From Methanobacteriota archaeon (GTDB lineage: Archaea; Thermoplasmatota; Poseidoniia; Poseidoniales; Poseidoniaceae), in NCBI GenBank assembly GCA_011524855.1, contig WTJK01000017.1, forward strand, positions 13,054 to 77,053: a stretch of 64,000 bases of DNA, written 5' to 3'. The notes under the pieces were generated by a model. The model saw only the letters and a program-made list of their open reading frames with translations, was not told where the DNA came from and did no database searches. A program made the translations under genes and the position numbers. Positions 40,991-53,153 of the stretch are shown here, one piece after another. Every line of letters begins with the position of its first letter. The first letter of the stretch is position 1.

Positions 40991-41562
40991 CGACCAAAGA
41001 CGAGGCCATGACCGCCGTTCGAACACTTCTTGCCTACCTTGAGGGAGAAGGCAATGCAAACAGAGAGGGTTTGGAAGCCACACCTCAACGGGTGATTGAT
41101 TCCTGGGGTGAAGTGTTCTCAGGGTACGGGCAGTCTGCTGCTGAGCTGCTCAACGCCACCTTCAACGGTGAAGGTTACGATGGGATCGTGTTGTTGCGAA
41201 ACATTGAGTTCCATTCCACCTGTGAACACCACCTTCAACCGTTCCGTGGTCGTGCTCATGTGGCATACATTCCCGTTGAACGCATCGTTGGCATCAGCAA
41301 GCTTGCTCGACTCGTTGACCTGCACGCCCGCCGCTTGCAGAACCAAGAGCGTATCACCAAATCAGTCGCGGACGACCTTGAAACGCACTTGCACCCGTTG
41401 GGTGCTGCTGTGATTTTGGAAGCCTCTCATGGATGCATGCAATGTCGCGGGGTGGCCAAACAGGAAGCGATCATGACAACGTCCGCCATGCGTGGTGTGT
41501 TTTTCGATAAAAGTGAGGCCCGGTCTGAACTGATGCAATTGATTCAACAACCGGTTCTCTGA
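40987..41562 (+). CDS. folE: GTP cyclohydrolase I (FolE).
   Basis: 'FHSTCEHHLQPF' and 'ISKLARLVDLHARRLQNQERIT' match FolE active-site motifs. Confidence 0.85.
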   Translation: MTTKDEAMTAVRTLLAYLEGEGNANREGLEATPQRVIDSWGEVFSGYGQSAAELLNATFNGEGYDGIVLLRNIEFHSTCEHHLQPFRGRAHVAYIPVERIVGISKLARLVDLHARRLQNQERITKSVADDLETHLHPLGAAVILEASHGCMQCRGVAKQEAIMTTSAMRGVFFDKSEARSELMQLIQQPVL

Positions 41563-41563
41563 G

Positions 41564-42226
41564 GTGAAGGGTATGGAGGCGTGTTCCAGAGGTGGTGGCC
41601 CGTTGGGCGATGACCCCGCCGACCTTGCGGCAGAATACAACATCGTGGAAATATTCCACAGCGTGCAAGGGGAAGGCTACCATGCTGGGATTCCGCACGT
41701 GTTCATTCGCTTTGGCCGATGCAACCTTCGGTGCGAATGGTGCGACACCGATTTTGACACCTTTGATGTGATGTCTGCCTTGGATGTGCTCGGTGAGGTG
41801 TTGAAGTTCCCTTGCCGACGGGTGATCTTCACCGGAGGTGAGCCGATGCTGAACGACCTCTGGCCACTGCAGCGCTTGCTGAAAGCACGGGGATACAACC
41901 TCGCCGTGGAGACCAACGGCACGGTGGAAATTCCTGAGGGCCTGATGGATTGGGTGTGTGTGTCTCCAAAAGACCAGGTCTACCCCAATGTGACCATCCG
42001 CCAGCGGACGGGCGATGAACTCAAATGCGTGTATGTTGGTCAATCGCTTTCAATGTACGACGAATTGGTCGATGGTTTCAGCCATCGGTTTCTTCAACCG
42101 TTGTACGACGAATCGGCTACGGTTGAAGCGAACGGCGTGAGTTTTGCCTTAACAGAAGCCGTGGTGAAAAACAACCCCCCATGGCGGTTGTCGTTGCAGA
42201 CCCACAAATGGATGGGGGTGGACTGA
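41564..42226 (+). CDS. queE: 7-carboxy-7-deazaguanine synthase QueE (radical SAM).
   Basis: 'QGEGYHAGIPHVFIRFGRCNLRCEWCDT' is the QueE-type cluster motif. Confidence 0.8.
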   Translation: MKGMEACSRGGGPLGDDPADLAAEYNIVEIFHSVQGEGYHAGIPHVFIRFGRCNLRCEWCDTDFDTFDVMSALDVLGEVLKFPCRRVIFTGGEPMLNDLWPLQRLLKARGYNLAVETNGTVEIPEGLMDWVCVSPKDQVYPNVTIRQRTGDELKCVYVGQSLSMYDELVDGFSHRFLQPLYDESATVEANGVSFALTEAVVKNNPPWRLSLQTHKWMGVD

Positions 42227-46549: not shown

Positions 46550-47410
46550 ATGAAGAAGGCGTTGGCACAGAATCCAAACCTTTTGCGAACCCTGATCGGG
46601 ATGTCGCTCACCCTCATTTTTCTGCTCAGCTACGCCGTCTACGGCGCCACGGTCTCGCCTTCGGTATACATGTACGAAACCGAGCCCACCATCACCGAAC
46701 ACGCAACCAGCGACGACGAAGACAGCATTGAGCGAACGTACGACGACGAAGCCAACACCACCACTTGGGCGTGGCCGGTGACCATGAACGGGAACAACCT
46801 CACGTGGGTTAACGTGACGGCGACGGACCTGTCCAGCGGTTCCGTCGTCCGCATCATCAACGTCGCAAAACTCTACAGTCACGAGTTGCTCGGCAACACC
46901 TACGACCTCGAAAACCCGCTTGAGGAGGAATTCTCATGCGCCGATTTGTGCGACCACATGGCCACGCACGTCCGAGAGCCAGACGACAACGGCGAAGTGC
47001 TGTTCCATGCGCTCACCTCAACGGACCCCGCACGACGGTCCAACGGTTCCGTGTTCGCACAAGACCTGGCAGAGGCCGAAGAAAAAGCTCGTGGACTCAT
47101 CGCGTACGAACACTTCCCGGCCTTGTTGCGTATCGAAATCGTTGAGCAAGGTAACCGGACCACCAATCCGAACATTGAGGTCGAGACCGTGAACGAGGCG
47201 TTCGCAAGTGTGGACGTGTTTTCGGTGGACACCGCCACTGAATTCCTTTGGGCTCTTGCCGCTGTTGTGGGCTGCTTTGCCATGGTGTTGGTTCCGTCCT
47301 TCACCGTTTACTTCGCTGCTCGAGCCAAGGAAAAGCGGGCCGAGGCGAAACTCGTTTCGGATGAACAATCCGTACAGGAGAGCCTCCAACCTTCAACCAC
47401 GGAGACATGA
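46550..47410 (+). CDS. Surface-anchored secreted protein (N-terminal signal/TM, C-terminal TM anchor) rich in N-glycosylation sequons.
   Basis: Signal-like 'LLRTLIGMSLTLIFLLSYAVYGA'. Sequons NTT, NLT, NVT, NRT and NGS. C-terminal TM 'LWALAAVVGCFAMVLVPSFTVYFAA' followed by a basic tail. Confidence 0.5.
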   Translation: MKKALAQNPNLLRTLIGMSLTLIFLLSYAVYGATVSPSVYMYETEPTITEHATSDDEDSIERTYDDEANTTTWAWPVTMNGNNLTWVNVTATDLSSGSVVRIINVAKLYSHELLGNTYDLENPLEEEFSCADLCDHMATHVREPDDNGEVLFHALTSTDPARRSNGSVFAQDLAEAEEKARGLIAYEHFPALLRIEIVEQGNRTTNPNIEVETVNEAFASVDVFSVDTATEFLWALAAVVGCFAMVLVPSFTVYFAARAKEKRAEAKLVSDEQSVQESLQPSTTET

Positions 47411-47448: not shown

Positions 47449-50400
47449 ATGGCTCACCGGAGATGGCCGGCCCTCGCTTTGATGGCCCTGTTGTGTTTCT
47501 CCATCCAACTCCAGCCGGTGTTGACAGCGTCGCAACCTGCGCGACATCATGCACCCTCCAACCCCACCGGCGTGGACATTGAGGTCACGGGTGTCTCGAT
47601 TGCGTACACCAACAACGCAGACGTCAATTCGTACCGTATGTTTTCCTCCAACCACCCCATCGCCGGGTTCAACCGGCCTGCGAATCTGTATGTGATCGAT
47701 GGCATGGTGGACACCGGTTCAACGTTAACCGTCACCGTGGAAAACATCGGAACGGCCAACAGCGGCGTGGTGGACGTGACCGTGACCCTTCTTCATGACG
47801 AATATGCCTTTTTTGAATTCGTCAACACCACCGTTCAGATGAACGGGCTCTCCCCTGCTGCCATTGATACGGTCGAAATCCCCATCACACCCGGCTATGC
47901 AGGGAACCATTCCATGCTCATCACGGCCACACCAACGGTGAACGACGATGACCCGAGCAACAACGTCTTCAATCGCCATTTCACCGTGGGTTACCGTTAC
48001 TACAACTGCGACACAACGGCCAATCACACGTTTGGCCCGGGTTGGTCCCTCAGCACCGACACCTCGATTTCCAAAGGGTCCAGCTGCCATGTTGGAAACG
48101 GCCAGACGGGGACCTACACGAACAACATGATGACGGCCCTGGTGACGCCGGTCATGGACATGTCGGATGCCGTGCAGTCGCCGTTACGAACAAACGGATT
48201 GTCCTTTTACTACACGGGGAGCAGCGCCGCCAACGATGTGTTGAAGATTTACGGTGCAGATACCATGGGCGCATGGGTGGAAATCGCATCACTGACGGGA
48301 ACAGTGGATCAAAATTTCTTTGACGGAGCCAACTGGCAAACGTTCAGTTTCAACAACAAAGGCGCCGCTTCCCCTTTGATTCCTATCCAAACAGCGCTGT
48401 TCCACAGCGCATCGCAATTCAAATTCGAGTTCACCTCAGACGCCAGTGGGACGGACATGGGCTTTTACATCGATGAAATCGTGATGGTGTACGACCAAAA
48501 GGTCCGCATTCATGAGTTTGATGTGAGCGCGCAAGGTGTCGGCACGACCGGCGCGTTGCCCGGTGAGTGGGGCAGCGTGACGGTCGAAATCGTCAACGAC
48601 GGCAACATCACCGAGACCTTTGTGCCCTCTGTCAGCGGCATACCGGAGGGCTGGGGTGTGTACTTTGCTCGGCCCTCTGGCACGAGTTTCAACCCTGCCT
48701 CCGGATTAACGGTGACACCCGGAACCCCCTCGGCATTCAAACTGATGCTCAATCCCGACGAGAACGCTTCAACCGGATTCCAACAGATGCAAATCGATGT
48801 TCGCTCGGTGCAATATTCGAGCGTAAACACCTCGCTTCCTGTTCAATTCCTGGTCAAGGCTGACAGGATCCCGGTGATGACAGCCCCTGTCCTCCGTCCC
48901 AGCTGTCCGCCCACACAGAGCTGTTCGTTCAGCATTGAAATCAACAACGCTGGTGAAGCGACCGACGTGTTCGACCTCTCCTTGAACACCTCAACCTTGC
49001 CATCGGATTGGTCCGTGAACCTTGACTGGATGCAACGAACATCGGTTCAAGTGCGACCGCAACAGCCCGAGCAGGTCGGTTTGGTGATGACGGTTCCTGC
49101 CAGTGCAGCACCGGACACCGTCGTTCAATTCTCAATGACCATGGCGGCTCAGAACGATTCACGCCGAACACTGACCACAGTGTTCGACGTGTCTGCAAGC
49201 ATGATCAGCAATGCAAGTCTCCTCATGACGAGCCACCAGACCACCGACACCGTGGAGGTTCTCCCCGGCGAAACAACCTTGCTGTCCTACACCGTCACCA
49301 ACCATGCCCCACGGCAGGATATTTTTGACGTGCGAATACAAGCCGAAAACCTTGGGCAGTGGACCGTCGAACAACCATCACGCCCCGCAATGGTGTTGAA
49401 CAGCGGGTCAACGTCCACTTTCAACGTCCGCATCACGGCCCCCGAGACAGCACAGGCTGGCGACCGTGGCCCCGTCATCACCCCCATCATCGAGTCGCAA
49501 CGGAGTTTCATGACCGTGGAGGGTGAGGGCTTCAGCGGTTTGCGAGCAGGGAGTGTTCACGACGTCGCCCTCGATGCCGTTGAACTCCCGCAGCGCATCC
49601 TACCGGGTGGGTCCAACCTGCTGATGTTCAACGTGAGCAATCAGGGTAACGGGCCGGCCAGCACGCATCTGGTGGCGGAAGATTTGCCCGCAGGCTGGAG
49701 TTACACCATGCTGCTCAACGACGAACCGGTGAACGGCAGCATCGACCTCTCTGCCATCTACGGCATGCAACCCTACACGGTGGTTCAGGTGCAAGTGCAT
49801 GTTCCGTCTTCCGAGGATGCAGGTGCCCGAACCACCATGCGATGGTCCTTGGATTTGGAATCCCAAACACAGGACGTTGACCTGTCAAACAACGTCATTG
49901 AATGGACGACAGTGACAGCCGCTGTGAAAATTGTTGAACTGGACGATGCGGTAGGGTCAACCCGTGCGGCGGTGGGCGGTACTGCCTTTGCAGAAGCGGT
50001 GATCAGGAACATCGGGAATGCACCTGAATCGACGTTGGCTGTCATCGCCACCGTGTCAGCATCACCACCCAACCCCGATTTGGTGGCCTTGTTCTCTGTG
50101 AACGGTGCCGACAAATCGCTGGCTGAGCAGGCGCCGATAAACGTGGCAGCAGGTGGGAACACGACCTTCCGCGTTGACCTCTTGATTCCTGAAGGGATGG
50201 AATTAAACACGCGTATTGTGGTCAGGTTTGAAGTGTTGAACGCCGTTGATGAAGAAGGGTTACCCGTCCCCATGATGGCGGAGCAACTTGTGGTTGTTGA
50301 TCAACGCCGTTCAATCTCCCTCACCGCAATGCCTGCCAACGCCGAAGCGACGACGTGGAATGGTGCGGCATTGGTGTGGGTGAACTTGACCAGCACCTCG

Positions 50401-51021
50401 ACGCAGACAGAAAACCTCACCCTCGCCGCTGTTGGCCCCAGCGCCTGGCAAATCAGTTGCCAACAGCGCATCCTCAACACCTCAGGCGAAGCCCTGGTCA
50501 TCGCACCCGGCCACCTTAACCCTCAAGCAGAACGTCGTTTGTGTGAAATCGTCAACCTGGACGCAACGTGGCAAGGGGAAGTTGCCTTTACCATCAGCGA
50601 TGACCAGCAGACGGTGATGGCTGATGCGTCGGTCGAATTGAGTTTCAGGGAACCTGAAGAATCCCAATCGTTCGCCTCGGGCGCCATGCTGGCGGGTGGA
50701 GGCGGTCTCGTCATCACCATCGCCGTTGGGCTCTTGTTCCTGCGTCGAAGAGCACCTGCAACATCGACGGTGTTGGCGAACGAACCGAAGGTTGCGCCTT
50801 CGTTAGCGTCGGCTGTTCTGGCAGGCCCCCCTGCGACTTCCGGAGGGACCGACACGATGAGCGGAGAGCCGGAGCAACACGGCCCTGAACCACGCGATGT
50901 TGAGGTGCAGAAGGCGATGAACGAGGAGGGCCCACCGCTCCCGGCCGAAGGCCTGCCCCCGGGCTGGACGATGGAGCAGTGGAGGTACTATGGCCAGCAA
51001 TACCTTGATGGGACCTTGTAA
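47449..51021 (+). CDS. Large (1190 aa) cell-surface glycoprotein (S-layer or adhesin-like) with tandem beta-rich Ig/CARDB-like domains, a C-terminal TM anchor and a cytoplasmic tail.
   Basis: Signal peptide 'ALALMALLCFSIQLQPVLTA'. More than 20 N-x-S/T sequons. Recurring 'VTV...N.G' domain periodicity. TM 'LVITIAVGLLFLRRR' near the C-terminus. Confidence 0.6.
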   Translation: MAHRRWPALALMALLCFSIQLQPVLTASQPARHHAPSNPTGVDIEVTGVSIAYTNNADVNSYRMFSSNHPIAGFNRPANLYVIDGMVDTGSTLTVTVENIGTANSGVVDVTVTLLHDEYAFFEFVNTTVQMNGLSPAAIDTVEIPITPGYAGNHSMLITATPTVNDDDPSNNVFNRHFTVGYRYYNCDTTANHTFGPGWSLSTDTSISKGSSCHVGNGQTGTYTNNMMTALVTPVMDMSDAVQSPLRTNGLSFYYTGSSAANDVLKIYGADTMGAWVEIASLTGTVDQNFFDGANWQTFSFNNKGAASPLIPIQTALFHSASQFKFEFTSDASGTDMGFYIDEIVMVYDQKVRIHEFDVSAQGVGTTGALPGEWGSVTVEIVNDGNITETFVPSVSGIPEGWGVYFARPSGTSFNPASGLTVTPGTPSAFKLMLNPDENASTGFQQMQIDVRSVQYSSVNTSLPVQFLVKADRIPVMTAPVLRPSCPPTQSCSFSIEINNAGEATDVFDLSLNTSTLPSDWSVNLDWMQRTSVQVRPQQPEQVGLVMTVPASAAPDTVVQFSMTMAAQNDSRRTLTTVFDVSASMISNASLLMTSHQTTDTVEVLPGETTLLSYTVTNHAPRQDIFDVRIQAENLGQWTVEQPSRPAMVLNSGSTSTFNVRITAPETAQAGDRGPVITPIIESQRSFMTVEGEGFSGLRAGSVHDVALDAVELPQRILPGGSNLLMFNVSNQGNGPASTHLVAEDLPAGWSYTMLLNDEPVNGSIDLSAIYGMQPYTVVQVQVHVPSSEDAGARTTMRWSLDLESQTQDVDLSNNVIEWTTVTAAVKIVELDDAVGSTRAAVGGTAFAEAVIRNIGNAPESTLAVIATVSASPPNPDLVALFSVNGADKSLAEQAPINVAAGGNTTFRVDLLIPEGMELNTRIVVRFEVLNAVDEEGLPVPMMAEQLVVVDQRRSISLTAMPANAEATTWNGAALVWVNLTSTSTQTENLTLAAVGPSAWQISCQQRILNTSGEALVIAPGHLNPQAERRLCEIVNLDATWQGEVAFTISDDQQTVMADASVELSFREPEESQSFASGAMLAGGGGLVITIAVGLLFLRRRAPATSTVLANEPKVAPSLASAVLAGPPATSGGTDTMSGEPEQHGPEPRDVEVQKAMNEEGPPLPAEGLPPGWTMEQWRYYGQQYLDGTL

Positions 51022-51027
51022 GCACCG

Positions 51028-51207
51028 ATGATTATGACCGAATACCCTGTCACGTGGTACGGTCTTTGGTTCGTCGTCTCCGCTTGCGGGGTCGCTGCGT
51101 GGTACCTTCGCCACTTCACACAACGCGTGCAGGCCCTGCGCCTCGTCGCACTCACAGGTGTGGCCAGCATGTTGACGTTGGTGTTGTGGACTTGGATGGA
51201 GTTTTGA
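51028..51207 (+). CDS. Small (59 aa) Trp-rich two-TM-helix peptide (below the ORF-track size cutoff).
   Basis: ATG 7 nt after the stop of the surface protein gene. Translation is MIMTEYPVTWYGLWFVVSACGVAAWYLRHFTQRVQALRLVALTGVASMLTLVLWTWMEF. It is in frame with, and 9 nt upstream of, the PqqD-like gene. Confidence 0.35.
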   Translation: MIMTEYPVTWYGLWFVVSACGVAAWYLRHFTQRVQALRLVALTGVASMLTLVLWTWMEF

Positions 51208-51216
51208 GGTGGTTCC

Positions 51217-51720
51217 ATGGACCTGGCCAATGCATCATCACACCCGCTGGCAGAACAATTCCCGTGCAGAACACCGGTGTGGTGGGCTCGGGTAGGTCCA
51301 GAGGAGCGCAACCCAGGCACGGTGGGCGTGAGCGGCAGGAACGTCGTCTTACGCATTGAAAAACGGTTTAATCGCCTCGAACGATGGTTGGCTCGTTGGT
51401 TTCGGGCCCCAAGGGAAGTTCGACGTCCCCTTGACCGAATGAACAGCATGGTATGGGAGTTGTGCGACGGTTCCCGCACGTTCTTGGAGGTGTGCGCGGT
51501 GCTCAACGATGTTTTTGCCGAAGAGGTCGCCCCGGTGGTTTCCCGGACGGCCATGGCACTGGCTCAACTTCAGCGCAACAACCTGCTGTTGATGCTGGAT
51601 GAACCGCTGAACGGTCGGTGGTGCATTGGTCCCGGCTTGACGCCTGATCACCAATCGCTTGACCCTCGAACCGACCTTGAGGGGTACGACGTCACTCGCC
51701 TTCCCGATGAAGCGGCGTGA
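51217..51720 (+). CDS. PqqD-family (RiPP recognition element-like) peptide-chaperone domain protein.
   Basis: 'RMNSMVWELCDGSRTFLEVCAVLNDVFAEEVAPVVSRTAMALAQLQRNNLLLM' matches the PqqD pattern (LN..a..iW.L.DG.rTv.Ei...L...y..........v..fl..L...gLl). Confidence 0.55.
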   Translation: MDLANASSHPLAEQFPCRTPVWWARVGPEERNPGTVGVSGRNVVLRIEKRFNRLERWLARWFRAPREVRRPLDRMNSMVWELCDGSRTFLEVCAVLNDVFAEEVAPVVSRTAMALAQLQRNNLLLMLDEPLNGRWCIGPGLTPDHQSLDPRTDLEGYDVTRLPDEAA

Positions 51721-51726
51721 CGGATG

Positions 51727-52485
51727 TCAGTTTGAGGATGGTTCTTCTGGCTCCCACACCAAACGCAACCCGAGTCCATCACTTCGCTTCTCGGGGGGGG
51801 CCGAGGACCGTGCAGTGCTACGAGTGGCATCGCTTTCCGTGAACCACGCCCCGCCGCGAATGACCCTTCGGTGCCCATCCAAGGCGATGAATGCTTCTTG
51901 CTTCCTTGGTTCATCGTAACGTTGTGTGTAGTGGTCTTCGCACCACTCGTAAATCAAGCCGTTCATATCATGGAGACCCCAGGGGTTGGATGACTTGGAG
52001 CCCACCTCTCTGGTGGTCCCCCCGGAGTTGCCGGCGTGCCAGCCGTTGTCATCGAGATCCCTGTCGCGATCACCGAACCACCAGCGCGATTCGGTGCCCG
52101 CCTTCGCGGCGTATTCCCATTCGGCCTCGCTGGGAAGGCGCCATCGTCCAATGAATCCCAACCTGACAACCTCCAAGTCACGTTCATTCAGGCGCTGCAG
52201 GAAGTGATTCACCTCGTCGAGAGTCATCGATTCCACCGGACGGAGGCCTGCACTCCAACCCTCTTGGAATTTCGAGGGATTGGACCCCATCACGTCAAAC
52301 CATTGAGCTTGTGTCACCGGACGCTCGCCCATAAAAAACGGGCGCTCGATCTCAACATCGTGGGCGGGTTGCTCGTTCCGCGCACCGTCTCCGCGCGTGT
52401 CACCCATCGTGAACCGACCGGGTTCGATCAACCGGTACGTGCCGCCCCAGTGGTCGGAAAAAACAGGCTGGTCCATGGCGATCAC
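51727..52485 (-). CDS. FGE-sulfatase (SUMF1/EgtB/PvdO-like) domain protein.
   Basis: 'RLPSEAEWEYAA', 'NPWGLHDMNGLIYEWC', 'RVIRGGAW' and 'GLGLRLV' are FGE-domain hallmarks. Confidence 0.7.
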   Translation of the reverse strand: MIAMDQPVFSDHWGGTYRLIEPGRFTMGDTRGDGARNEQPAHDVEIERPFFMGERPVTQAQWFDVMGSNPSKFQEGWSAGLRPVESMTLDEVNHFLQRLNERDLEVVRLGFIGRWRLPSEAEWEYAAKAGTESRWWFGDRDRDLDDNGWHAGNSGGTTREVGSKSSNPWGLHDMNGLIYEWCEDHYTQRYDEPRKQEAFIALDGHRRVIRGGAWFTESDATRSTARSSAPPEKRSDGLGLRLVWEPEEPSSN

Positions 52486-53036
52486 GTGCGGTCACGCAGC
52501 ATGGTAGCCGTGGCCAACACCGAACGCACGAGGTTCTCGAGCCGTTCAACAATGGACGGATCCACCAATCTTCCGTCCTCGTCAAACGCCTCTTTGACAT
52601 GACCAACGGCGAGTTGTTCGGGCACGGGCCAAGCGTGCAACCAGCGGCATGCGATTCTCATGTGATTCAGCGTGTTGGCATTGGTCACGCCCCCGAGGGT
52701 GGACATCAAGCCAACGGCTTTTCCACCGACGTGTTTGTCGTACATCCAGTCCAGCGTGTTCTTCATCACGCCCGACATGGTTCCGTGATATTCGGGTGAT
52801 GACAACAGGACGGCGTCGGCGTTAGTAACCGACTCTTGAAACGCCGCCACATGAGGGTGCGACCAACAACCGTCTTCGCCCACCAGCGGGAGCGGGTGTG
52901 TCGCGAGGTCCCAAAATTCGATGTCTGCTCCTGCTTCTTGTGCGATCTCAAGGGCCAGGTTGGCCAACATGCCTGATTTGGAGGAGGAACGGTACTCACC
53001 AGCAAGGGCAAGAACTCGGAGCGGTCGTTGACTCAT
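52482..53036 (-). CDS. NAD(P)H-dependent FMN reductase (flavodoxin-like fold).
   Basis: 'LRVLALAGEYRSSSKSGMLA' and 'AVLLSSPEYHGTMSGVMKNTLDW' match the family. Its stop overlaps the start of the FGE-like gene, which suggests they are translationally coupled. Confidence 0.7.
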   Translation of the reverse strand: MSQRPLRVLALAGEYRSSSKSGMLANLALEIAQEAGADIEFWDLATHPLPLVGEDGCWSHPHVAAFQESVTNADAVLLSSPEYHGTMSGVMKNTLDWMYDKHVGGKAVGLMSTLGGVTNANTLNHMRIACRWLHAWPVPEQLAVGHVKEAFDEDGRLVDPSIVERLENLVRSVLATATMLRDRT

Positions 53037-53153
53037 GGGTGAACGATGGGCCCGAGGCACATGAAGGTGTTCGTTGCACATCGTCCAAGCCTCTCGCAGG
53101 AAGAGACAACACTTATTGGCGAATGGACACTCGTTTCAAACAAGTGAGTCCAC

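What the first reader, a model, noticed from the sequence alone, without database searches (positions are those of the whole stretch)
51028..51720. A 59-aa Trp-rich two-TM peptide immediately upstream of a PqqD-like RRE protein: a possible cryptic peptide-maturation (RiPP-like) unit
An unannotated 59-aa ORF (MIMTEYPVTWYGLWFVVSACGVAAWYLRHFTQRVQALRLVALTGVASMLTLVLWTWMEF) sits 7 nt after the giant surface-protein gene. It ends 9 nt before, and in frame with, a 167-aa protein whose core matches the PqqD/RiPP-recognition-element fold pattern. RRE proteins normally bind precursor peptides for a partner modifying enzyme, such as a radical SAM, YcaO or lasso cyclase. None of those partners is present here. 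Either the small ORF is a precursor or membrane partner of a new type, or the PqqD-like protein has been recruited to another role.
Basis: partly seen in the sequence, partly recalled or inferred. Interest (0 to 1): 0.65.

Follow-up and report, generated by a model that had tools for sequence, protein, structure and literature searches.

The report
Conserved archaeal microprotein plus PqqD-like partner
A tiny two-helix membrane protein and the PqqD-like (peptide-binding fold) protein after it form a gene pair kept together in all Marine Group II archaeal loci examined; it looks like a core membrane-associated module of unknown function, not a peptide natural-product cluster.

Summary
A 57/59-aa Trp-rich two-TM ORF (51028/51034..51207) ends 9 nt before a 167-aa gene (51217..51720). 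That gene's protein belongs to the PqqD/RRE superfamily. The window is from a Poseidoniales (Marine Group II) archaeon. The small ORF is a real gene: its 55-codon core has no indels in 81 distinct sequences, and dN/dS is 0.19 in frame against 1.2-1.8 out of frame. It sits 6-12 nt upstream of the PqqD-like gene in all 97 Poseidoniales loci examined. The pair stays together when the neighbouring giant surface-protein gene is inverted, distant or absent, and in one non-MGII archaeal contig. PqqD membership is indirect: the Pfam score is below threshold, distant relatives pass it, a confident AF2 model has RREs among its top PDB matches, and the fold carries extra elements. The RiPP reading is not supported. 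The peptide is uniformly conserved and membrane-embedded, the pair lies in a syntenic core region, and no modifying enzyme lies within 6-8 kb in any context. The in-frame spacing is not conserved, so there is no readthrough fusion. Best reading (inferred): a membrane-tethered RRE-like adaptor or chaperone complex. Function unknown.

The parts
51034..51207 (+). Small membrane protein gene, 57 aa from ATG 51034 (59 aa if ATG 51028 is used). It is a predicted two-TM hairpin with aromatic belts (YPxxWYxLW ... GVxTWYLRNF ... WTWxEF) and a conserved basic loop.
   Evidence: Searches give the sequence, hydropathy and charge. One search gives dN/dS 0.19, no indels, and invariant W6 Y7 L9 G17 W21 L23 F26 A37 G40 M44 W50 T51. 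One search finds an HMM hit directly upstream of the PqqD-like gene in all 97 Poseidoniales loci.
51205..51216 (+). Stop codon TGA plus a 9-nt spacer carrying a Shine-Dalgarno-like GGTG(G). This is a translational-coupling junction between the two genes.
   Evidence: One search shows the sequence. One search shows a spacer of 6-12 nt in 86 loci (9 nt in 54), usually T(G/A)(A/G)GGTGA, with stop codons TGA, TAG and TAA. The frame relation is not conserved.
51217..51720 (+). PqqD/RRE-superfamily protein, 167 aa, soluble (no TM segment).
   Evidence: Pfam PqqD below threshold, but matched by 30 of 32 family members; transitive link to homologues that pass the Pfam threshold. AF2 pLDDT 89, pTM 0.85; several of the top Foldseek PDB hits are RREs (ranks 1, 4, 5, 6, 10); maximum KD(19) is 1.28.
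51259..51294 (+). Family-specific N-terminal beta-hairpin, residues 15-26, motif (Y/F)PxRxPVWW(A/G)R. P16, R18, P20, V21, W22 and W23 are invariant.
   Evidence: alignments; strands 15-18 and 22-26.
51340..51597 (+). RRE-like core, residues 42-127. The order is strand 42-48, inserted helix 53-62, strand 67-71 (RRPLD, equivalent to RRE beta3), helices 74-82, 89-100 and 107-120, then an extra strand 124-127.
   Evidence: One search gives the secondary structure. Searches show that Pfam PqqD positions 15-67 map here. One search shows the profile of distant relatives aligning this stretch to TbiB1 residues 32-84.
51598..51717 (+). C-terminal extension, residues 128-167, with conserved EPLNGRWxIGPGxTPxHQxL. 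It is present in MGII and intermediate relatives and replaced by charged low-complexity tails in the distant clade.
   Evidence: alignments; pLDDT 82-93 although mostly coil.
47449..51021 (+). Upstream neighbour, context only and not an obligate part. It is a 1190-aa surface protein with a signal peptide, CARDB/Ig-like domains, a C-terminal TM helix and a cytosolic tail ending in GLPxGWTxEQWxYYGQQYLDGTL.
   Evidence: The pair is found without it or inverted relative to it in L093, L101, L102 and L087.

Best explanation
This is a conserved two-gene module of Poseidoniales (Marine Group II) archaea, not a biosynthetic cluster. Gene 1 encodes a 57-aa two-TM hairpin microprotein. Its predicted topology is N-out/C-out, exposing only a short, conserved, basic loop (about W21-R34 of the 55-residue core) to the cytoplasm. 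Gene 2 is translationally coupled to gene 1 through a 6-12 nt SD-containing spacer. It encodes a soluble protein built on the PqqD/RRE peptide-binding winged-helix fold, with a family-specific Trp-rich N-terminal hairpin, a helix inserted between beta2 and beta3, an extra strand after alpha3, and a C-terminal extension. Shown here: both genes are under purifying selection, they are always adjacent in MGII and move as a unit, they are independent of RiPP enzymes, and gene 2 belongs to the PqqD superfamily. Inferred: the two products form a stoichiometric membrane-associated complex. In that complex the RRE-like protein uses its peptide-binding surface on a segment of the microprotein, either the cytoplasmic loop or the N-terminal YPxxWY motif before membrane insertion. 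The microprotein would then act as membrane anchor or client, and the RRE-like protein as adaptor or chaperone. The cellular process served is unknown. A cell-envelope role is plausible from the frequent operonic link to the major surface-protein genes.
For: - Real coding gene: dN/dS is 0.19 in frame against 1.19 and 1.83 out of frame, with a 55-codon core free of indels.
- Adjacency: an HMM of the small protein hits directly upstream of the PqqD-like gene in all 97 Poseidoniales loci. The spacer is 6-12 nt and carries GGTG.
- The pair behaves as a unit. In L101 it is inverted relative to the giant gene. In L093 it lies elsewhere with no giant gene. In L102/L103 the giant gene is absent and FMN_red, the small ORF and the PqqD-like gene are on one strand. 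In the non-MGII contig L087 the order is alaS, a 56-aa two-TM ORF (HMM E 0.01), the PqqD-like gene, then a Zn-ribbon gene.
- Superfamily assignment: 30 of 32 members hit Pfam PqqD weakly. The family profile reaches 317 cluster representatives, and distant ones score 34-42 bits on PF05402, above the 23.4 cut-off. The AF2 model has pLDDT 89 and pTM 0.85. Foldseek ranks 1, 4, 5, 6 and 10 are TbiB1, PqqD and lasso B1, with TglI and PbtF lower; target-normalised TM is 0.62-0.66 for TbiB1. The top PDB sequence hit of the distant-clade profile is TbiB1, E 0.029.
- Not a RiPP cluster: no rSAM, YcaO, lasso B2/C, ATP-grasp or Lan enzymes lie within 6-8 kb in any context. The only CxxxCxxC ORFs in the window lie about 9 kb and about 48 kb away, and one is QueE-like.
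- Distribution: 206 GTDB species representatives encode a relative, and the 80 loci listed are almost all labelled Poseidoniales or MGII (one is labelled Verrucomicrobiales, probably mis-binned), in a ribosomal-protein-flanked syntenic region.
Against: No direct evidence of a physical interaction was obtained. The inter-protein covariation test was inconclusive (Neff about 31, no enrichment of loop positions). A complex could not be modelled. The window protein itself is below the Pfam and NCBIfam thresholds. Foldseek E-values are weak (0.3-3), and non-RRE proteins (a methyltransferase and a carbamoyltransferase) are interleaved among the top hits. [quoted passage not shown] The extra strand after alpha3 could occupy the canonical leader-binding edge in cis. 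Distant homologues (L090, L099, L100) lack the small ORF, so the soluble protein can work without it. A loop of about 12 residues between two TM helices is an unusual RRE ligand. Within MGII, adjacency could partly reflect shared ancestry.
Confidence: 0.55

Rival explanations
1. RiPP-like unit. The 57-aa peptide is a precursor recognised by the RRE and modified by an enzyme encoded elsewhere or of an unknown type, for example the convergent FGE-sulfatase-like protein with its FMN reductase.
For: The partner has an RRE-type fold. A small ORF immediately upstream is the classic RiPP layout. An FGE-family protein, belonging to a family of peptide and protein modifiers, and a flavin reductase are close by in most MGII loci.
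Against: The peptide is conserved over its full length, with no leader/core dichotomy and no indels. It is a two-TM hairpin. The pair is found in 206 species representatives in a core syntenic region, not patchy like biosynthetic clusters. The FGE gene is convergent and is missing from the neighbourhood in L097, L093 and L102. There is no CxPxR motif, and the Cys in the small protein (55 of 74) and in the partner's YPCR motif are not invariant. No protease or transporter is present.
Confidence: 0.07
2. The microprotein is only the membrane anchor. The true ligand of the RRE-like groove is another peptide, most attractively the near-invariant cytosolic C-terminal motif of the co-transcribed surface protein (GLPxGWTxEQWxYYGQQYLD). 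The module would then couple the surface layer to the cytoplasm or assist its biogenesis.
For: In Poseidoniaceae the four genes (about 270-aa membrane protein, about 1200-aa surface protein, microprotein, PqqD-like protein) are tightly packed on one strand. The surface protein's tail is variable except for a terminal linear motif conserved in 83 loci, which is the kind of ligand RREs bind.
Against: The pair persists where the giant gene is inverted (L101), not adjacent (L093), absent (L102) or in another lineage (L087). The L101 orthologue's tail lacks the motif and ends in a zinc ribbon instead. The PqqD-like protein's conserved residues stay the same across these lineages.
Confidence: 0.15
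3. There is no peptide binding at all. The winged-helix protein is a nucleic-acid-binding or regulatory factor, or has some other role, and the small ORF is merely co-expressed.
For: PqqD belongs to the winged-helix-type folds. Several distant homologues carry Lys/Arg-rich tails and are followed by a small zinc-ribbon protein. Distant homologues occur without the microprotein.
Against: Other homologues have strongly acidic tails. The best structural and sequence neighbours include peptide-binding RREs and no DNA-binding wHTH proteins. Strict adjacency and coupling with the microprotein hold across rearrangements.
Confidence: 0.1

Closest known systems
Discrete RRE proteins of lasso-peptide pathways (B1 proteins, e.g. 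TbiB1, PDB 5V1U/5V1V; 6JX3)
   Same: Best structural match of the AF2 model (Foldseek rank 1, 4 and 6, target-normalised TM 0.56-0.66). Also the best PDB sequence hit of the family's distant-clade profile (E 0.029, aligned over beta3-alpha1-alpha2-alpha3). Both are small stand-alone proteins encoded next to a small ORF.
   Different: No B2 protease or C cyclase is anywhere near. This protein is 167 aa against about 85-90 aa, with an extra N-terminal hairpin, an inserted helix, an extra C-terminal strand and an extension. The neighbouring small ORF is a conserved two-TM membrane protein rather than a leader/core precursor. The distribution is lineage-wide core rather than patchy.
PqqD (PF05402 / TIGR03859), peptide chaperone of PQQ biosynthesis
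   Same: The sequence signature LD..(N/G)(S/T)..W.L.DG..T..EI......F.E...P...R...F...L....L matches Pfam PqqD positions 15-67. PDB 5SXY is among the top structural hits.
   Different: Below the Pfam threshold (18.2 against 23.4 bits) and far below TIGR03859 (14 against 46 bits). No pqqA, B, C or E genes are present. MGII archaea are not known PQQ producers (own knowledge).
Other PqqD-family chaperones modelled by NCBIfam (ScmD, GeoRSP PqqD, lasso_PqqD_Bac)
   Same: Distant members of this family give weak matches to all of them, which places the family inside the PqqD chaperone superfamily.
   Different: All scores are 4-5-fold below each family's cut-off. None of the partner radical-SAM/SPASM enzymes that define those systems is present.

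Membership tests
PqqD / RRE superfamily (PF05402) | Sequence match to the Pfam PqqD model at or above the gathering threshold (23.4 bits) | tested here: inconclusive
   The window protein scores 18.2 bits, E 0.0031. 30 of 32 orthologues match weakly, best 5e-5. Homologues linked by the family profile at E 1e-15 to 1e-20 score 24.6-42 bits, above threshold. Membership therefore rests on transitivity.
PqqD / RRE superfamily (PF05402) | [quoted passage not shown] | tested here: inconclusive
   The AF2 model (pLDDT 89) has strands 15-18, 22-26 and 42-48, helix 53-62, strand 67-71, helices 74-82, 89-100 and 107-120, and strand 124-127. All canonical elements are present in the right order, but a helix is inserted between beta2 and beta3 and there are extra strands at both ends.
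PqqD / RRE superfamily (PF05402) | Structural similarity to solved RREs | tested here: inconclusive
PqqD / RRE superfamily (PF05402) | Binds a peptide by beta-strand addition to beta3 | not testable with these tools
   A complex could not be modelled: the fusion translation was rejected. Covariation was inconclusive.
RiPP biosynthetic gene cluster | A modifying enzyme (radical SAM/SPASM, YcaO, lasso B2/C, LanB/C/M, ATP-grasp and similar) encoded near the RRE | tested here: not met
   None lies within 6-8 kb in 12 distinct contexts with precomputed Pfam annotation. The only CxxxCxxC ORFs of the window are at 1495-2736 and at 41543-42223 (QueE-like).
RiPP biosynthetic gene cluster | A precursor peptide with a conserved leader and a variable or modifiable core, soluble and exportable | tested here: not met
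   Conservation is uniform over 55 residues, with no indels and 12 invariant positions spread over both TM helices and the loop. There are two hydrophobic TM segments.
RiPP biosynthetic gene cluster | Patchy, accessory-genome distribution | tested here: not met
   Relatives were found in 206 GTDB species representatives. The 80 loci listed are almost all labelled Poseidoniales or MGII and lie in a conserved region beside the S19e/L31e/L39e/S17e genes.
PQQ biosynthesis PqqD (TIGR03859) | Equivalog score of at least 46 bits and pqqABCE neighbours | tested here: not met
   14.1 bits, E 0.033. No pqq genes appear in any context.
Lasso peptide B1 (NF033536 and relatives) | Family score above cut-off, with B2 protease and C cyclase neighbours | tested here: not met
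   No hit for the window protein. Distant relatives score 17.8-19.8 bits against a cut-off of 80. No transglutaminase-like or Asn-synthase-like neighbours are present.

The most novel reading that the evidence does not exclude
The RRE/PqqD peptide-binding fold has been exapted outside natural-product biosynthesis. It would act as the cytoplasmic subunit of a core membrane complex, with a dedicated two-TM microprotein, in the most abundant planktonic archaea. The complex could, for example, dock or chaperone cytoplasmic tails of the major surface proteins, or act in envelope biogenesis. This would be a housekeeping, non-RiPP role for an RRE, with a membrane-embedded ligand.
Probability: 0.3. 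Interest if true: 0.65.

Novelty: new variant of a known kind. Interest (0 to 1): 0.42.

Why it matters
RRE/PqqD domains are used as class-independent markers for RiPP genome mining. This family is conserved across an abundant archaeal order, lies in a core genomic region and has no biosynthetic partner. It is therefore a systematic false positive for such mining in marine metagenomes, and it is evidence that the fold has non-RiPP uses. It also defines a previously undescribed, strongly constrained microprotein (57 aa, two TM helices) with an obligate soluble partner in uncultured Marine Group II archaea, whose cell envelope is essentially unknown. The pair is small and well defined, so it can be tested directly by co-expression, peptide binding and complex prediction.

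Tried and rejected
- Stop-codon readthrough or a fused membrane-anchored PqqD protein: rejected. The spacer is 6-12 nt, 28 of 86 loci are out of frame, and all three stop codons are used. Longer database 'fusions' (P0040, P0055, P0136, P0275) are mis-called N-terminal extensions in another frame.
- FGE-sulfatase-like neighbour as the modifying enzyme: no CxPxR motif, the Cys residues are not invariant, and the gene is convergent and missing from several contexts.
- Profile of the orthologue family against PDB sequences: only noise, ribosomal S5 at E 1.2.
- Single-sequence search with the 57-aa peptide: only 3 near-identical hits because of the word index.
- Metagenome locus scan with the distant-clade alignment: the first alignment was too divergent; the second returned only 3 loci.
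- AF2 of the two ORFs as one chain: rejected because of the stop codon.
- Inter-protein mutual-information covariation: Neff about 31 and no enrichment of loop positions, so inconclusive.
- Literature searches for Poseidoniales or MGII with PqqD or RRE: nothing found.
- Pfam and NCBIfam on the small protein: only noise.

Full report
**Observation.** The window around 44-58 kb carries a gene order typical of Marine Group II archaea (Poseidoniales). The rRNA/tRNA methylase and ribosomal protein genes S17e, L31e, L39e and S19e lie on the minus strand. On the plus strand follow a 286-aa membrane protein (46550..47410), a 1190-aa surface protein (47449..51021), the small ORF (51028..51207) and a 167-aa ORF (51217..51720). 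An FGE-sulfatase-like gene (51727..52485) and an FMN-reductase gene (52482..53081) converge on these from the minus strand.

A second ATG at 51034 gives a 57-aa product. That is the length of almost all homologues. The spacer TGA-GGTGGTTCC-ATG contains an archaeal Shine-Dalgarno-like GGTG.

**Is the small ORF a gene?** Yes. I collected 80 loci from GTDB species representatives. In that scan 206 stretches encoded a relative. The 80 loci kept are almost all labelled Poseidoniales or MGII; one is labelled Verrucomicrobiales and is probably mis-binned. I added further loci from metagenome assemblies.
- The peptide's 55-residue core is present without a single indel in 81 distinct DNA sequences.
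- Pairwise Nei-Gojobori dN/dS is 0.19 in the annotated frame, against 1.19 and 1.83 in the two shifted frames. The PqqD-like gene gives 0.04.
- Twelve positions are invariant (W6, Y7, L9, G17, W21, L23, F26, A37, G40, M44, W50, T51).
- Hydropathy and charge (loop +3, both termini -1) suggest an N-out/C-out two-TM hairpin. Its Trp and Tyr residues form interfacial aromatic belts, and only about 12 residues face the cytoplasm.

**Is the partner PqqD-like?** Yes, but by indirect evidence.
- The window protein scores below the Pfam threshold (18.2 against 23.4 bits) and far below every NCBIfam PqqD equivalog.
- 30 of 32 orthologues give the same weak PqqD hit.
- A profile of the family finds 317 cluster representatives among 1.8 billion proteins.
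- The more distant of these align over residues 43-130 at E 1e-15 to 1e-20. They pass the Pfam PqqD threshold themselves, at up to 42 bits.
- The profile of this distant clade has TbiB1, a lasso-peptide RRE, as its best PDB sequence hit (E 0.029).
- An AF2 model built on the orthologue alignment is confident (pLDDT 89, pTM 0.85).
- Its Foldseek PDB hits at ranks 1, 4, 5, 6 and 10 are RREs (TbiB1, PqqD, lasso B1), with TglI and PbtF lower in the list. E-values are modest (0.3-3) and unrelated enzymes sit at ranks 2 and 3.

The fold is a decorated RRE. The canonical three strands and three helices are present in the right order, with RRPLD (67-73) corresponding to beta3. Four elements are added: an N-terminal strand, a helix (53-62) inserted between beta2 and beta3, a strand (124-127) after alpha3, and a structured C-terminal extension. 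[quoted passage not shown] Family-specific invariant residues (P16, R18, PVWW 20-23, K49, F51, E55, R69, P71, D73, E102, P106, R110) go beyond the generic PqqD signature.

**Are the two genes linked?** Strongly, within MGII. An HMM of the small protein hits immediately upstream of the PqqD-like gene in all 97 Poseidoniales loci and nowhere else in them. The spacer is always 6-12 nt and nearly always carries GGTG right after the stop codon.

The pair also survives rearrangement as a unit:
- In L101 the pair is inverted relative to the giant surface-protein gene, which is then convergent.
- In L093/L094 it sits between a HEAT-repeat gene and a PGF-CTERM-like gene, with no giant gene nearby.
- In L102/L103 the giant gene is absent. 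FMN reductase, a 58-aa homologue and the PqqD-like gene follow each other on one strand.
- In a non-MGII archaeal contig (L087/L088) a 56-aa two-TM ORF lies between alaS and a PqqD-like homologue that passes the Pfam threshold. This ORF matches the MGII small-protein HMM at E 0.01.

Other distant homologues (L090, L099, L100) lack such an ORF. The soluble protein family is therefore older or broader than the partnership.

**What it is not.**
- Not a readthrough fusion. 28 of 86 loci are out of frame and TGA, TAG and TAA all occur. Apparent long forms in databases are mis-called starts.
- Not a recognisable RiPP cluster. No radical SAM, YcaO, lasso, lanthipeptide or ATP-grasp enzyme, protease or transporter lies within 6-8 kb in any of a dozen contexts.
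- The only CxxxCxxC-containing ORFs of the window are about 48 kb away (1495-2736) and a QueE-like ORF about 9 kb away (41543-42223).
- The peptide lacks a leader/core structure, is membrane-embedded, and lies in a ribosomal-protein-flanked core region.
- The convergent FGE-like gene is not a consistent neighbour. Neither protein has a CxPxR motif or an invariant Cys.

**Most likely mechanism.** This part is inferred. The RRE fold is a peptide-binding module. Its gene is translationally coupled to a microprotein whose most conserved soluble-facing features are a basic cytoplasmic loop and an N-terminal YPxxWY motif. The simplest model is a stoichiometric membrane-associated heterocomplex. The microprotein would be either the anchor or the client, and the PqqD-like protein an adaptor or chaperone.

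A sub-variant is that the groove binds another ligand. In Poseidoniaceae the co-transcribed surface protein ends in a near-invariant cytosolic motif, GLPxGWTxEQWxYYGQQYLD (83 loci). However, that motif is replaced by a zinc ribbon in the L101 lineage, and the gene is absent in others, while the pair is unchanged.

I could not obtain direct interaction evidence. The extra strand after alpha3 may occupy the canonical leader-binding edge. That needs inspection of the model's coordinates, which were not available to me.

**Comparison and novelty.** The closest known proteins are discrete RREs (lasso B1 such as TbiB1, and PqqD). The family fails the defining contextual features of every known PqqD system and scores far below all curated family cut-offs. 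Literature searches found nothing on PqqD or RRE proteins in Poseidoniales. I rate it a new variant of a known kind: an uncharacterised, decorated branch of the PqqD superfamily paired with a novel conserved microprotein in a housekeeping context.

Interest is moderate. It matters for RRE-based genome mining, where it is a lineage-wide false positive. It also matters for microprotein and envelope biology of an abundant uncultured archaeal group. The function remains unknown, and orphan PqqD-family proteins are not rare.

Noticed in passing
window 50950-51021 (C-terminus of the 1190-aa surface protein 47449..51021): The cytosolic tail is variable except for a near-invariant terminal motif, GPPLPxxGLPxGW(T/S)xEQWxYYGQQYLD(GTL), found in 83 loci. 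It resembles the first half of a WW domain (LPxGW...G..Y). This looks like a short linear docking motif.
   Followed up: partly
L101 6457..10401 (-): The orthologous giant surface protein of another MGII lineage lacks that motif. It instead ends with YSDEQLVASGWSAEQIAELRG and a C4 zinc ribbon (CPSCSG...HCPQCN) on the cytoplasmic side.
   Followed up: no
L087 7435..7686 (+); L090 1308..1529 (+): Distant PqqD-like homologues in two unrelated contexts are followed by a conserved 73-83-aa C4 zinc-ribbon protein, CPQCG..YYE..LITG..YHC.DCDY.GAF (56-58% identity), which overlaps the PqqD-like gene's end. It has only a weak DUF7838 or Lar-like Pfam match. It is absent from the MGII loci.
   Followed up: partly
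window 51727..53081 (-): A 252-aa cytosolic FGE-sulfatase-domain protein and an NADPH-dependent FMN reductase overlap by 4 nt and converge on the PqqD-like gene. With an ArsC-like gene in many loci, they travel with this region in MGII. In L102 the FMN reductase is directly upstream of the small ORF on the same strand, and in L090 a PyrK-like flavoprotein overlaps the start of the PqqD-like gene.
   Followed up: partly
window 46550..47410 (+): A 286-aa type-I membrane protein with no Pfam match is always encoded just upstream of the giant surface protein. It is retained (270 aa, L102 6392..7204) even where the giant gene is absent. The two may be the major envelope (S-layer-like) proteins of MGII.
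   Followed up: no
L001-L006, first gene of each locus (upstream of the window-equivalent region): A roughly 380-aa protein matches both QueC and SelR/MsrB Pfam families, which is an unusual fusion. It lies next to a PTPS (QueD-like) gene. The window has a QueE-like CxxxCxxC ORF at 41543..42223.
   Followed up: no
L039 (NZEQ01000052.1) and protein P0054: Contigs carrying this typical MGII locus are labelled 'Verrucomicrobiales bacterium' and 'Deltaproteobacteria bacterium' in public records. They are probably mis-binned MAG contigs.
   Followed up: no
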